A stretch of 64,000 nucleotides of DNA, from contig JAQXBA010000021.1 in NCBI GenBank assembly GCA_029252625.1, positions 25,067 to 89,066 on the forward strand, read 5' to 3'. Below, in pieces: positions 49,455 to 52,729 of the stretch. A model generated the notes under the pieces. That model worked only from the letters and a program-made list of their open reading frames with translations. It was not told the DNA's origin and ran no database searches. The first letter of the stretch is position 1, and each line of letters begins with the position of its first letter. A program made the translations under genes and the position numbers. Source of the stretch: Opitutia bacterium (GTDB lineage Bacteria; Verrucomicrobiota; Verrucomicrobiia; Opitutales; Coraliomargaritaceae).

Positions 49455-49707
49455 TTTATTCTCAGCTTAGAGAATGGCATTGATATATTTAGGGAGCGTT
49501 GAATTTGCTTTTGCGCATGGGAGGGACGAGCTACGTGTCGTACGGTACCGATGCGTAAGAGTCAGACAGAATTATCAGCCTTTTGAGACTCCTGGATTTT
49601 CATGCCGTCGCTAAAGTGCCCGCGGTCGACTCGGAAGTCGAGTCTCCCCAATAGAATACCCATACCATTAGGGGCAGTATAGCATCTCCGCGGGAAATGA
49701 CGATTAA
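49455..49707. mobile_element. MITE/REPIN-like element, older copy A
   Basis: Aligns end to end with 51752-52006 (about 75-80% identical by manual alignment). It is flanked by CTTTTTTTGG on the left and CTTTTTTTGTGG on the right, consistent with an eroded 12-bp target duplication. Confidence 0.75.
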
Positions 49708-49857
49708 CTTTTTTTGTGGCAAGAAACACCCCTGTCTCACGACGGAGTCTACCGCAGACCTGACGCGATTCAATACCTGCACGCAGTCGTAAGAACGGAG
49801 AGTTATCTGGATATTTTATAGTAGCTCTAGCCCTCCAGATCAGTTTAGCTCCTCGCA

Positions 49858-50121
49858 ATGAACACACCAATCCTTTATATAAAATCTGGTTGCCCTTGGT
49901 GCACAGAAGCCCTCAGCTACTTCAGCGAAAATAACATTCGTCTCGAAACTCGCGAAGTGCGCAGCAACAAAGTCTTCATGGAGCAGATGGTACAGCACAG
50001 CAGCCAAACCAAAACCCCCACCTTTGTACACGGAGAATTCGTCGTCGCCGACTTTGACATCGGCGAGTTCAAAGCCGCGCTGGATAAAGCGCCCGCCGTC
50101 AAAGTACAGCTTGGGCTGTAG
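49858..50121 (+). CDS. Glutaredoxin-like protein (CPWC), paralog 2
   Basis: LYIKSGCPWC...QTKTPTF...VVADF; clearly homologous to 45409-45696. Confidence 0.85.
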   Translation: MNTPILYIKSGCPWCTEALSYFSENNIRLETREVRSNKVFMEQMVQHSSQTKTPTFVHGEFVVADFDIGEFKAALDKAPAVKVQLGL

Positions 50122-50298: not shown

Positions 50299-50375
50299 AA
50301 AAAAAGCGCCGTCCCTTTCGAGACGACGCTTTTTCCAAACAACAAACTAATAAAACCTAAACAATATGATTATAT
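50299..50375 (-). ncRNA. Candidate small RNA, copy 1 (~77 nt)
   Basis: Preceded by TTTTGAACG-N16-GTCTA. It contains GUUUGUUGUUUG and ends in an 11-bp GAAA-tetraloop hairpin plus 7 U. It has no ORF, and a paralog lies at 50946-51020. Confidence 0.6.
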
Positions 50376-50380
50376 AAAGA

Positions 50381-50410
50381 TAGACGGACCAATGGCCCAA
50401 ACGTTCAAAA
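50381..50410 (-). promoter_or_regulatory. ECF/sigmaE-type promoter of sRNA copy 1
   Basis: GAACGT-N16-TCTAT matches the RpoE/AlgU-type GAACTT-N16-TCTnA layout. Confidence 0.55.
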
Positions 50411-50465
50411 TAGTTTTATTTTTTTAATTAAATGCTGAAAGCGCGCATCTGCGCCTCATCAGCCC

Positions 50466-50831
50466 CTATAGCTCAGTATACTTAATACTTCGCCCGCGGG
50501 CTTTCTCGACTGGATATTTTTCTGCATTACGCTGCATTTTCGCCTCAATAATCGCCGCAATGTTAATTCCAGTGACGTTAGCGAACTCAATTGCGAAGAT
50601 AAATACGTCCGCCAACTCCTCCTCAACCTTTGCACGCAGCTTGGTCACCTCGACATCAGTGTGTGACTGATCTGGGCTCTGCCAGAGGAAGTGCTCCATT
50701 AACTCGGCCGCCTCTGCCGAAATCGCCATCGAAAGATTCTTGGGACTGTGGAATTGCTCCCAATCTCTCTCCTTGGCGAAAGCTAGCACACGATCTTTGA
50801 TTTCCTGTAGGCGAGTCTCAGCGTCATTCAT
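50466..50831 (-). CDS. MazG-like nucleotide pyrophosphohydrolase (dCTP pyrophosphatase-like)
   Basis: ERDWEQFHSPKNLSMAISAEAAELMEHFLW...EELADV...KMQRNAEKYP. Confidence 0.92.
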   Translation of the reverse strand: MNDAETRLQEIKDRVLAFAKERDWEQFHSPKNLSMAISAEAAELMEHFLWQSPDQSHTDVEVTKLRAKVEEELADVFIFAIEFANVTGINIAAIIEAKMQRNAEKYPVEKARGRSIKYTEL

Positions 50832-50945
50832 ATGCAGGATCAATAGGCACTGCTGAGCAAGCTATCAATGGTGAAATAGGCCGAGATCGCCAGACTTCCC
50901 TATTGCACCTCTTCACACCTATGCGGAGATAGCCACTCGCTACAT

Positions 50946-51020
50946 AAAAAGGCGCCGACTCTTTCGAGACGACGCCTTTTACAAACAACAAACACATGAA
51001 AAATCTAATTAAGATTATAT
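50946..51020 (-). ncRNA. Candidate small RNA, copy 2 (~75 nt)
   Basis: Same promoter boxes, same 5' end AUAUAAUC, same GUUUGUUGUUUG core and a homologous GAAA-tetraloop terminator as copy 1. Confidence 0.6.
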
Positions 51021-51025
51021 ATAGA

Positions 51026-51055
51026 TAGACGTGCTAGTGGCCAAAGCGTTCAAAA
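51026..51055 (-). promoter_or_regulatory. ECF/sigmaE-type promoter of sRNA copy 2
   Basis: TTTTGAACG-N16-GTCTATCT; the boxes are conserved with copy 1 while the spacer has diverged. Confidence 0.55.
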
Positions 51056-51277
51056 TACTTTCAGTTTTTTCTACCAAATTTCGAACTACGCCAAAATAGC
51101 GCCCAAGGCCTTGCTTATGAGTGACTTTATAATGCGCCACTTCAGCCGCCGGAAAATGCAAGCCGCCTGTTCTGCTACTGGCAGGCTGAACGCGGACCCT
51201 GCCGAACGCATCAATGAATTCCTCAACACCCCGTTTACAATGCGTGGAGCTTTGTTATCCTTATAGCTACGCCCCCT

Positions 51278-51727
51278 ATGACTGCCCTGACAGATTGGAT
51301 ACAACGCAAGGAACAACTGCTACAGCTGCTCGGCAGCCTCTCGCTGCTCCTACTTACACTCACCCTCGCCGCTCTGGTGCTGGTAGTGATCACCCTGCCC
51401 GATAATTACTTCACTCGCGATCATCGCGCTCCGACCAGCCTCACACACCCACATCCACTACCCTGGCGAGGGTTATCACTGCTAAAAAATCTACTCGGCA
51501 TCCTCTTTATTTTCCTTGGAATAGCGCTGCTGGTCCTGCCCGGGCAAGGCGCACTCACCATCCTGGTCGGTCTGACACTAACCAACTTCCCCGGTAAATA
51601 TCGCCTCGAACGGCGCATGATGCGCCAATCGGTGATCCATAAATCGCTCAACAAAATCCGCACCATGGCGAATAAGCCGCCACTAAAAGTACCAGTGCAG
51701 CAAACGCCGGTAGCAAATCGACGATAA
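51278..51727 (+). CDS. PGPGW-domain membrane protein
   Basis: GIALLVLPGQGALTILVGL (a PGPGW-like motif) followed by FPGKYRLE. Confidence 0.75.
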   Translation: MTALTDWIQRKEQLLQLLGSLSLLLLTLTLAALVLVVITLPDNYFTRDHRAPTSLTHPHPLPWRGLSLLKNLLGILFIFLGIALLVLPGQGALTILVGLTLTNFPGKYRLERRMMRQSVIHKSLNKIRTMANKPPLKVPVQQTPVANRR

Positions 51728-51751: not shown

Positions 51752-52006
51752 TTCATCGTCGATTAGCGGGGAAGGCATTGATATATGTTGGGACCGTTGA
51801 ATGTGCTTTTTGCTCTTGGGAGGGACGACCTCCGTGTCGTCCGATACCGATGCGTGAGAGTCTGACAGGATGATCAGCTCTTGGAGACTTCTAGATTTCC
51901 ATGCGGCTTCTAAAGTGCTCGTGGTCGACACGGAGGTCGACCCTCCCCGGCAAAATAGCCGCTCCATTAGGCGGAGATTAGTATCTCCCCAGTAATCGAC
52001 GAAGAA
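51752..52006. mobile_element. MITE/REPIN-like element, intact copy B (255 bp)
   Basis: Perfect 12-bp direct repeat CTCCATTTTAGC at 51740-51751 and 52007-52018. The 21-bp terminal inverted repeats match at 18/21. It carries an internal inverted REP pair at 51818-51842 and 51923-51947. Confidence 0.85.
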
Positions 52007-52031
52007 CTCCATTTTAGCCCTGCAGCGTGAA

Positions 52032-52469
52032 TTAGCTGTGATTGTCACAGTCTTTACACACGCCGTAAACTTCCATTACGTGCGTAATCTGCGAGTAACC
52101 ATGCGCCTTTGCCCGCCCAAGCACTTCTTTGCCGACGCAGAGGTCCAAGCGCTCGGCTTGATGGCACTCGCGACAAATTAGATGATGGTAATGCTCGCCG
52201 GGAGCAGTCAGCTCGAAAAGTTGTGTGCCATTTTCTAGCGGGATGCGTTGAACGGCACCGATGCCATGCAGTGCCTCCAAGTTGCGATACACTGTCACGA
52301 GGTCAGTTTCCGCTAGCCCTGCGCTCTGCCGAATTTTGTCCGCACTCGCTGGATGGTCGAATTGGGTTAAGGCTCGGACGATACGGATTCGCTTTTGGGT
52401 GATTCGCCCCCCCTCTGCACGCATCCGCTCGAGGATGGTCTCTATCAAACTGTCGGGGGCAGAATTCAT
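52032..52469 (-). CDS. Fur/Zur/PerR-family transcriptional regulator
   Basis: RITQKR, LVTVYRNL, HYHHLICRECH and YGVCKDC (two CxxC motifs). The start was moved to the ATG at 52469. Confidence 0.9.
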   Translation of the reverse strand: MNSAPDSLIETILERMRAEGGRITQKRIRIVRALTQFDHPASADKIRQSAGLAETDLVTVYRNLEALHGIGAVQRIPLENGTQLFELTAPGEHYHHLICRECHQAERLDLCVGKEVLGRAKAHGYSQITHVMEVYGVCKDCDNHS

Positions 52470-52510
52470 GGTAACTATACTGCTAGGACTGCATTCAGGT
52501 TCAAGTTCAT

Positions 52511-52729
52511 TCACTCCCCATATTGTGCTACACTGCAATCTGTCAGTGCGGTCACCGAAGGAAAATAAGTTGGGTTTGCCATTGTAATGTAGACTTAAGC
52601 ATTTGCTGAACCCAGCGTATTTGAGTGGTAATGAGCCCACATATCAATGCCGCCTATAAGTAGACAGAATATGAACGGAATTTATATGCCCACCAGGATC
52701 CCTTTTGAATGAAATATATTCTCTTCCAT
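52511..52729 (-). pseudogene. Possible decayed small membrane or exported protein gene (or a 15-aa peptide)
   Basis: Perfect AAGGAGG 7 nt before the ATG at 52729. The frame reads MEENIFHSKGILVGI*IPFIFCLLIGGIDMWAHYHSNTLGSANA*VYITMANPTYFPSVTALTDCSVAQYGE*. Confidence 0.3.

What the first reader, a model, noticed from the sequence alone, without database searches (positions are those of the whole stretch)
50299..51055. Twin candidate sRNA genes with an ECF/sigmaE-type promoter and a shared GU-rich seed, flanking a MazG-like gene
Seen: two ~140-bp direct repeats (about 50299-50430 and 50946-51075), each reading on the minus strand A-rich tract, TATTTTGAACG, a diverged 16-nt spacer, GTCTATCT, AUAUAAUC, a variable U-rich stretch, GUUUGUUGUUUG, then a GAAA-tetraloop terminator and U-run. 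The promoter boxes, 5' end and 12-nt core are identical while the spacers drift. The terminator shows an A-U to G-C compensatory swap and a U-G to U-A change. There is no shared ORF on either strand. Established: GAACTT-N16-TCTnA is the RpoE/AlgU promoter layout, sigmaE drives ~75-nt sRNAs (MicA, RybB) that repress envelope mRNAs, and GU-rich seeds (GcvB) pair with CA-rich translation enhancers. Inference: a sibling pair of stress-induced trans-acting sRNAs targeting CAAACAACAAAC-like leaders. I know of no such family in Verrucomicrobiota.
Basis: partly seen in the sequence, partly recalled or inferred. Interest (0 to 1): 0.78.

Follow-up and report, generated by a model that had tools for sequence, protein, structure and literature searches.

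The report
ECF-promoter sibling small RNAs of Opitutales
The two repeats are real copies of a previously undescribed family of ~75-nt small RNA genes, conserved in marine Opitutales (Verrucomicrobiota), each with its own stress-sigma-type promoter, an invariant U/G-rich single-stranded core and a terminator; expression and targets remain untested.

Summary
Observation confirmed and extended. The repeats at 50299-50430 and 50946-51075 (minus strand) are paralogous, self-contained small-RNA genes. Each has an A-tract, TTGAACG-N16-CGTCTAT, an AU-rich 5' part, an invariant UUUGUUGUUU core and a GC-rich terminator.

- **Copies:** a third copy lies on another contig of the same genome.
- **Distribution:** homologs, often in tandem arrays of 2-5, occur in most genera of one Opitutales family. 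Diverged versions occur in at least two other families. None was found in 385 other Verrucomicrobiota genomes, and no Rfam family matches.
- **Conservation:** promoter boxes and core are near-invariant while spacers drift. All 11 terminator pairs covary.
- **Not a mobile element:** tandem arrays exist without the MazG-like gene, and MazG-sRNA adjacency is old synteny.
- **Candidate sigma factor:** one of five ECF sigma genes, SigW/RpoE-like with a membrane anti-sigma-like partner, carries the same GAAC-N17-(A/G)TCTA layout upstream of itself. This is conserved in relatives.
- **Chaperone:** Hfq is absent from the sampled genomes of the order.
- **Targets:** unresolved. Core-complementary sites are not enriched at 5' regions, and the one candidate target tested across relatives (katG) is not conserved.

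Best reading: ECF-sigma-driven, Hfq-independent sibling regulatory sRNAs. This is a new family of a known kind.

The parts
50299..50375 (-). sRNA copy A, predicted RNA of about 77 nt. The 5' end is inferred at A50375 +/-3; the 3' end is the U-run at 50305-50299.
   Evidence: Sequence. R1 covariance-model hit of 91.5 bits. MFE -24.3 kcal/mol, z -5.1, core unpaired. The 5' end is inferred from its distance to the -10 box and was not measured.
50403..50408 (-). Copy A -35 box, TTGAAC. The upstream A-tract lies at 50419-50425.
   Evidence: Information content is 1.5-2.0 bits across 106 homologs, against 0-0.5 bits in the spacer.
50381..50386 (-). Copy A -10 box, CGTCTA. The GAAC-N17-GTCTA spacing is invariant.
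50336..50347 (-). Copy A conserved single-stranded core, GUUUGUUGUUUG.
   Evidence: UUUGUUGUUU is invariant in 33 of 33 aligned homologs. It is unpaired in the MFE structure.
50306..50329 (-). Copy A terminator hairpin, GCGUCGUCUC-GAAA-GGGACGGCGC, followed by U7.
   Evidence: all 11 pairs covary and 97% of cells are paired.
50466..50831 (-). MazG-like gene (PF12643) lying between the two sRNA genes.
   Evidence: Pfam E 6e-16. The start at ATG 50831 is inferred from orthologs that begin MND...
50946..51020 (-). sRNA copy B, predicted RNA of about 75 nt. The 5' end is inferred at A51020 +/-3; the U-run lies at 50950-50946.
   Evidence: R1 hit of 87.8 bits. MFE -23.8 kcal/mol, z -5.2, with a small 5' hairpin AAUCU/AGAUU.
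51048..51053 (-). Copy B -35 box, TTGAAC. The A-tract lies at 51065-51070.
51026..51031 (-). Copy B -10 box, CGTCTA.
50982..50993 (-). Copy B conserved core, GUUUGUUGUUUG.
50951..50976 (-). Copy B terminator hairpin, followed by U5.

Best explanation
Copies A and B, together with a third copy on contig C198, are sibling genes of an Opitutales-specific family of ~75-nt non-coding RNAs. Each gene is its own transcription unit. Transcription starts from an ECF-sigma-type promoter (A-tract, TTGAACG-N16-CGTCTAT). The most likely sigma factor is the conserved SigW/RpoE-like ECF encoded at G000 C183:7490-8101, which sits next to a single-pass membrane anti-sigma-like protein. Transcription ends at a strong intrinsic terminator. 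The RNA presents an invariant, unpaired U/G-rich core (A)GUUUGUUGUUUG between a weak variable 5' part and the terminator. The most likely mode of action is Hfq-independent base pairing of this core with C/A-rich sites in mRNAs when the ECF sigma is released. The multiple copies would give dosage or slightly different specificities. Shown in silico: gene anatomy, conservation pattern, covariation, taxonomic range, absence of Hfq, and the matching promoter upstream of the ECF gene. Inferred: transcription and its 5' end, sigma dependence, the stress signal, trans-action and the targets.
For: - **Anatomy and paralogy:**
- **Core and terminator in 33 homologs:** UUUGUUGUUU is invariant, and the terminator has 11 pairs, 7 of them with compensatory changes.
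- **Covariation in 112 distinct sequences:** 97.2% of cells are paired, all 11 pairs covary, 0 of 500 shuffles reach the observed values, and slid controls give 37-70% paired.
- **Unpaired core:** the core is unpaired in A and B and in 22 of 33 homologs.
- **Promoter conservation:** information content is about 2 bits in TTGAACG and CGTCTA against 0-0.5 bits in the spacer.
- **Unbiased promoter check:** a model that holds no promoter positions found 33 distinct hits. Of these, 28 have GAAC-N17-nTCnn just upstream and 24 have the strict GAAC-N17-GTCTA.
- **Rarity of the box pair in this genome:** there are 16 matches to [TG][TG]GAAC-N17-[AG]TCT[AT]. Eight lie outside my crude ORF-based gene calls or within 250 nt upstream of an ORF. 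Those eight include the 3 sRNA genes, the ECF gene C183 itself, a rhomboid protease gene and an ABC-2 permease gene.
- **The ECF gene:** of the 5 ECF sigma genes only C183 has the motif upstream. It is kept upstream of orthologs in about 22 of 30 relatives. The protein is closest to the SigW/RpoE models and is followed by a TM-containing ORF.
- **Taxonomic range:** an exact pattern scan of 185,579 species returned 82 stretches, nearly all Opitutales. Model hits were 18 of 301 in the order and 16 of 401 in the phylum, all 16 in one family.
- **No Hfq:**
Against:
- Targets are unresolved. Duplex energies of the core with 5' regions are no better than with internal coding windows.
- The 11-mer complement is no more frequent than its reversed control in 41 genomes.
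- The complementary site in the katG leader is not conserved.
- The ECF ortholog is much more widespread than the sRNA, so co-occurrence does not discriminate.
- Four sRNA-bearing genomes have a mutated -35 box upstream of the ECF gene.
- A TATAAT-like box sits just downstream of CGTCTA, and a sigma-70-type match of 10/12 is called for copy B.
Confidence: 0.6

Rival explanations
1. The RNA is real and ECF-driven, but the invariant U/G-rich core is a protein-binding site rather than a pairing seed. The RNA would titrate or recruit a single-strand RNA-binding protein, for example one of the two RRM-domain proteins or the CspA homolog encoded in this Hfq-less genome.
For: - Complementary mRNA sites are not enriched.
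- Hfq and CsrA are absent, while two RRM proteins and a CspA homolog are present.
- The core is flanked by U-runs and is unpaired.
- Tandem arrays of up to 4-5 copies would suit titration.
Against: Invariant single-stranded seeds are equally typical of pairing sRNAs. No binding motif is known for these proteins, and nothing links them to the locus. Failure of a crude single-genome target scan is the usual outcome even for true pairing sRNAs.
Confidence: 0.2
2. Transcription comes from a housekeeping sigma-70-type promoter that uses the TATA(T/C)A(T) box. The invariant TTGAACG and CGTCTAT boxes would then be the operator of a transcription factor, not ECF -35/-10 elements.
For: - A sigma-70-like match, TGGCCA-N18-TATAAT at 10/12, is called for copy B.
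- A TAnAnA-like element 6-10 nt after CGTCTA carries 0.8-1.5 bits.
Against: - The TATA box is much less conserved than GAAC/CGTCTA and is lost in other genera.
- No conserved -35 box lies 17 nt upstream of it.
- TTGAAC is 28 nt from TATAAT.
- AAC at -35 and CGT at -10 with fixed 16/17-nt spacing is the hallmark ECF layout (established knowledge).
- The same layout sits upstream of an ECF gene.
- The boxes are not a repeat or a palindrome.
Confidence: 0.1
3. The repeats are cis-acting leaders or attenuators of neighbouring genes, for example a terminator-based switch in front of mazG.
For: Copy B lies 115 nt upstream of mazG on the same strand and ends in a terminator.
Against: - Copy A lies downstream of mazG and faces a convergent glutaredoxin-like gene.
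- Copy C is convergent with a ROK-kinase-like ORF.
- In other genera the RNAs lie downstream of mazG or form tandem arrays, each copy with its own promoter and terminator.
- No alternative anti-terminator fold is conserved.
Confidence: 0.03
4. The repeats are ends or remnants of a mobile element that delivered the MazG-like gene.
For: They are direct repeats flanking one gene. A dispersed ~230-bp repeat also brackets the wider segment, at 49480-49760 and 51780-52040.
Against: - The genome holds only 3 copies, each at a syntenic place.
- There are no terminal inverted repeats, target duplication or transposase.
- Pairs 170-380 bp apart occur without MazG (G019, G003, G035, G026, G030).
- MazG is adjacent to the RNA genes in four other genomes, from at least three other genera.
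- The a and b subtypes are each orthologously conserved across species of the genus.
- The outer 230-bp repeat is an unrelated multicopy element.
Confidence: 0.02

Closest known systems
Sigma-E-dependent sRNAs of Enterobacteria and Vibrio (MicA, RybB, MicL, VrrA)
   Same: They are short (~70-90 nt) terminator-ended RNAs transcribed from an ECF-sigma promoter of the GAAC...TCT type. They have a conserved single-stranded seed. Their presumed role is the repressing arm of an ECF regulon.
   Different: There is no sequence or structure homology and no Rfam match. Hfq is absent here. The core is internal rather than at the 5' end. Genes are multicopy or tandem. The phylum is different. Sigma dependence and envelope targets are unproven.
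Sibling or tandem sRNA families (OmrA/B, PrrF1/2, Qrr1-5, LhrC1-5, AbcR1/2, Neisseria NmsR/RcoF, Rhodobacter CcsR1-4)
   Same: A genome holds two to five paralogous copies, often adjacent. Each copy shares an invariant seed and the same regulator-specific promoter, while the rest of the RNA drifts. The arrays keep synteny with a small neighbouring gene (here MazG-like), as the CcsR arrays do with a DUF1127 gene.
   Different: The regulators and seed chemistries differ: C-rich or UCCC loops in those families, a U/G-rich linear core here. The weak NmsRb score (26.4 bits against a gathering threshold of 52) reflects the terminator and composition only.
GcvB (GU-rich R1 seed)
   Same: Both have a conserved single-stranded G/U-rich region able to pair with C/A-rich sequences.
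   Different: There is no homology. GcvB is about 200 nt, Hfq-dependent and GcvA-controlled. No C/A-rich target set could be shown here.

Membership tests
ECF (sigma-E type)-dependent sRNAs (functional class) | The promoter matches an ECF sigma layout: AAC-containing -35 box, CGT/TCT-containing -10 box, fixed 16-17 nt spacing. | tested here: met
   GAAC-N17-GTCTA is present in all three copies and in 24 of 33 promoter-blind model hits. Information content is about 2 bits in the boxes and 0-0.5 bits in the spacer.
ECF (sigma-E type)-dependent sRNAs (functional class) | Transcription requires the cognate ECF sigma and is induced by its stress signal. | not testable with these tools
   Support is indirect only. 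The same box layout sits upstream of the SigW/RpoE-like ECF gene C183 and its orthologs.
ECF (sigma-E type)-dependent sRNAs (functional class) | Acts with Hfq. | tested here: not met
   There is no Hfq by tblastn in G000. PF17209 has no match above cut-off in 41 genomes of the order, while the control genomes are detected.
MicA / RybB / GcvB / any Rfam 15 family | The covariance-model score reaches the family's gathering threshold. | tested here: not met
   Only two tRNAs pass in the window. The best sub-threshold hits are EF3314_EF3315 at 27.8 bits (threshold 100), NmsRb at 26.4 (52) and GibS at 23.4 (115).
Sibling (multicopy) trans-acting sRNAs | One genome holds at least two paralogous genes that share promoter type and seed but have a diverged remainder. 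| tested here: met
   G000 holds three copies. Relatives hold 2-5 tandem copies.
Sibling (multicopy) trans-acting sRNAs | Seed-complementary sites lie in the mRNAs that are regulated. | tested here: inconclusive
   There is no enrichment at 5' regions. The 11-mer count equals its reversed control. The katG leader site is not conserved.
MITE or other mobile-element termini | Terminal inverted repeats or target duplications, many dispersed copies, and variable insertion sites. | tested here: not met
   There are three copies at syntenic sites with no TIR.
Cis-regulatory leader or attenuator | A constant position upstream of the same gene, with alternative folds. | tested here: not met
   The RNAs lie upstream of, downstream of or convergent with their neighbours. 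The 5' part is essentially unstructured.

The most novel reading that the evidence does not exclude
In a bacterial order that lacks Hfq, an ECF sigma factor drives an array of small RNAs. Their invariant U/G-rich single-stranded core would work not by ordinary seed pairing but by titrating or recruiting an RNA-binding protein (RRM-type or Csp). That would be a sigma-controlled protein-sponge RNA system, and the first post-transcriptional regulon defined in Verrucomicrobiota.
Probability: 0.18. Interest if true: 0.72.

Novelty: new member of a known kind. Interest (0 to 1): 0.55.

Why it matters
I found no report of conserved regulatory sRNAs in Verrucomicrobiota, either in four literature searches of the held paper library or in Rfam. 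Opitutales such as Lentimonas and Coraliomargarita are major degraders of marine algal polysaccharides.

This family offers three things:
- a ready-made RNA model for annotation;
- a predicted sigma factor, promoter and sRNA circuit that can be tested in cultured carriers;
- a case of sRNA regulation without Hfq.

The conceptual novelty is moderate, because stress-sigma-driven sibling sRNAs are well known in Proteobacteria.

Tried and rejected
- **Rfam:** I ran gathering and permissive E-value searches. No family matched; the weak hits are terminator and composition effects.
- **Shared ORF:** none. The ATG in copy B is absent from copy A.
- **Target prediction:**
  - Duplex energies of the core against -80..+30 of about 2,400 crude ORF starts were no better than against internal coding windows.
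  - Of the exact 12-mer and 11-mer complements outside the sRNA genes, two lie on the strand opposite to coding sequence and two lie more than 100 nt upstream of an ORF.
  - The 11-mer count in 41 genomes equals that of the reversed control.
  - The katG leader (CCAAACAACA at -29) looked attractive, sitting beside an oxyR-like gene, but the site is not kept in orthologous leaders.
- **PWM scan including spacer columns:** it was over-trained. The box-only scan found essentially only the sRNA genes.
- **The ECF gene next to the sRNAs in G026 (C132 type):** it has no matching upstream motif in G026 or G000.
- **5' hairpin SL1 (AAUCU/AGAUU):** it is weak (-1 to -4 kcal/mol). It shows some compensatory changes within the genus but is not conserved beyond it.
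- **The consensus terminator scan:** it missed both obvious terminators, whereas folding and covariation support them.
- **Oddly labelled records in the pattern scan:** hits in records labelled Clostridia, Pirellulaceae and Flavobacteriales did not match the RNA model and are chance matches. Those labelled Yoonia and Cyanobacteria match strongly and look like mis-binned Opitutales contigs.

Full report
**Observation**

The repeat finder gives two blocks of 56 and 61 nt, 86% and 82% identical and 645-646 bp apart. A global alignment of 162 columns is 86% identical.

Copy A:
- A-tract 50425-50419
- TTGAAC 50408-50403
- CGTCTA 50386-50381
- core GUUUGUUGUUUG 50347-50336
- hairpin 50329-50306
- U-run 50305-50299

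Copy B:
- A-tract 51070-51065
- TTGAAC 51053-51048
- CGTCTA 51031-51026
- core 50993-50982
- hairpin 50976-50951
- U-run 50950-50946

Between the two lies a MazG-like gene (PF12643, E 6e-16). Its real start is probably ATG 50831. No ORF is shared between the copies.

**More copies**

The window is C169:25067-89066 of a 3.03-Mb, 219-contig genome. BLAST and a pattern search found a third paralog at C198:10784-10904. It has TTTTGAACG-N16-GGTCTAA, the same core, and a terminator with a different loop and compensated stem.

**Relatives**

BLAST found strong matches in most genomes of the same genus. In many of these genomes they form pairs about 670 bp apart, the MazG-containing arrangement. Elsewhere the pairs are 170-380 bp apart. 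Thirty-four distinct copies were extracted and 33 were aligned.

- UUUGUUGUUU is invariant in all 33.
- The consensus fold is an 11-bp terminator, with compensatory changes at 7 pairs.
- Copies A, B and C fold at -24.3, -23.8 and -27.4 kcal/mol, with z-scores of -5.1 to -5.7. The core is unpaired in A and B.

**Taxonomic range**

I built a covariance model of the RNA part only (R1).

- It hit 18 of 301 genomes of the order. Twelve are in the window's own family. The weaker hits in two other families also show GAAC-N17-CG(T/A)CT and GUUUGU(U/A)GUUU.
- It hit 16 of 401 genomes sampled across the phylum, all 16 in that one family.
- An exact pattern scan, TTGAAC-N16-18-GTCTA-N18-45-GTTTGTTGTTT, over one genome for each of 185,579 species returned 82 stretches. 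Nearly all are labelled Opitutales, Puniceicoccaceae, Coraliomargarita, Lentimonas or Thalassobacterium, including two named isolates. Up to four or five copies occur in tandem.
- R1 confirmed 124 hits on these loci. The three hits in unrelated taxa did not match the model.

On 112 distinct sequences the terminator is 97.2% paired, all 11 pairs covary, no shuffle reaches the observed values, and slid controls give 37-70% paired.

**Promoter**

When the homologs are anchored on GAAC, information content is about 2 bits in TTGAACG and CGTCTA. It is about 1 bit in an upstream A-tract, 0-0.5 bits in the spacer, and 0.8-1.5 bits in a TATAYA element 6-10 nt after the -10 box.

Most of those loci were chosen by the pattern itself, so I repeated the check on hits of the promoter-free model. 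Of 33 distinct hits, 28 have the boxes in place and 24 have the strict form.

An AAC-containing -35 box and a CGT-containing -10 box at fixed spacing is the established ECF layout (background knowledge). A sigma-70-like match is called for copy B using the TATAAT box. That box is much less conserved and has no conserved -35 partner.

**Which sigma factor**

The genome has seven sigma-70-family genes, five of ECF size. Only C183:7490-8101 has the layout upstream of itself: TTGAACG-N16-ATCTAAG, with the same GAAC-N17 spacing.

- The motif is kept upstream of its orthologs in about 22 of 30 relatives.
- Lineages without the sRNA (G015, G017, G022, G027) also lack it. This is suggestive only, because these represent few independent events.
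- The protein scores best against the SigW and RpoE models, below their equivalog cut-offs.
- It is followed by a 223-aa ORF with one membrane helix and no Pfam match.

Genome-wide, [TG][TG]GAAC-N17-[AG]TCT[AT] occurs 16 times. Eight of these lie outside my crude ORF-based gene calls or within 250 nt upstream of an ORF. They include the three sRNA genes, this ECF gene, a rhomboid protease gene and an ABC-2 permease gene. That set is compatible with an envelope-type regulon, but it is small and unverified.

The ECF ortholog is much more widespread than the sRNA. Another ECF gene that lies next to the sRNAs in one genome has no such motif.

**Context**

The MazG-like gene is adjacent to the sRNA gene or array in other genera too. 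A SixA-like phosphatase gene and mgtE recur nearby. The MazG linkage is therefore old synteny.

The arrangement with one copy on each side of MazG is shared by many genomes of this genus. Within the genus, a-type and b-type copies are each conserved orthologously.

The 193-nt repeat pair at 49509-49701 and 51808-52000 belongs to a dispersed ~230-bp element on at least 10 contigs (12 matches or more). It is unrelated to the sRNA genes.

**Mechanism**

Hfq is absent by tblastn in this genome. PF17209 has no match above cut-off in 41 genomes of the order, while the control genomes are detected. CsrA was not found. Two RRM proteins and a CspA homolog are present.

Target prediction failed to give a signal:
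- Duplex energies at 5' regions are no better than at internal coding windows.
- Of the exact complements outside the sRNA genes, two lie on the strand opposite to coding sequence and two lie more than 100 nt upstream of an ORF.
- The 11-mer count equals its reversed control in 41 genomes.
- The katG leader site is not conserved.

The 5' hairpin is weak and confined to the genus.

Base pairing remains the most likely mode, by analogy with other invariant single-stranded seeds. A protein-binding role cannot be excluded.

**Known or new**

No Rfam family matches. Four literature searches found no report of such an RNA. Earlier notes of this scan hold no look-alike.

By class, this resembles the sigma-E-dependent sRNAs and the sibling sRNA families. 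By sequence it is a new family, and it differs in being Hfq-independent.

Noticed in passing
window 49480-49760 and 51780-52040: A ~230-bp dispersed repeat with an internal 25-nt inverted repeat (GGGAGGGACGACCTCCGTGTCGTCC / its complement). It matches at least 12 places on at least 10 contigs of the genome, at 70-92% identity. Two copies bracket the segment grx - sRNA A - mazG - sRNA B - PGPGW gene. The multicopy count fits that reading.
   Followed up: partly
G000 C198:10784-10904 (locus L004, 1501-1621): A third, more diverged paralog of the sRNA, convergent with a ROK-kinase-like gene. The same position is occupied in another genus (G034, L052). Its ortholog in G018 has a degraded -35 box (TTGGAC) and a degraded core (UUGUUUUUGUUUG).
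   Followed up: partly
G000 C183:8102-8170 (locus L168, upstream of the ECF gene): The SigW/RpoE-like ECF gene has two overlapping ECF-type box pairs: TTGAACG-N16-ATCTAAG and GGGAAC-N18-ATCTAC. The second ends only 6-8 nt before the ATG, which would give a nearly leaderless mRNA. Both are conserved in relatives.
   Followed up: partly
loci L110, L133, L146 (records PXEJ01000359, JBLHPJ010000024, JBLHPJ010000058): MAG records labelled 'Cyanobacteria bacterium' and 'Yoonia sp.' carry high-scoring copies of this Opitutales RNA (43-82 bits). They are probably mis-binned or mislabelled.
   Followed up: no
loci L120 and L127 (JBPOFZ010000017, JBPOFZ-related MAG_26/27); G289 C32:35862-36426: Arrays of four to five head-to-tail sRNA genes with a period of about 165-173 bp. 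Each has its own promoter and terminator. They lie directly downstream of a MazG-like gene.
   Followed up: partly
G000 C132:22294-22321 (inside an ECF sigma gene): A perfect TTGAACG-N16-TGTCTA match lies inside the coding region of another ECF sigma gene, 180 nt upstream of its anti-sigma-like ORF. It could be an internal promoter or chance.
   Followed up: no
window 49858-50121, 51278-51727, 52032-52640: The neighbours of the sRNA pair are a glutaredoxin-like protein, a PGPGW membrane protein and a Fur/PerR-family regulator. Together with MazG this looks like a small redox or stress-related neighbourhood.
   Followed up: no
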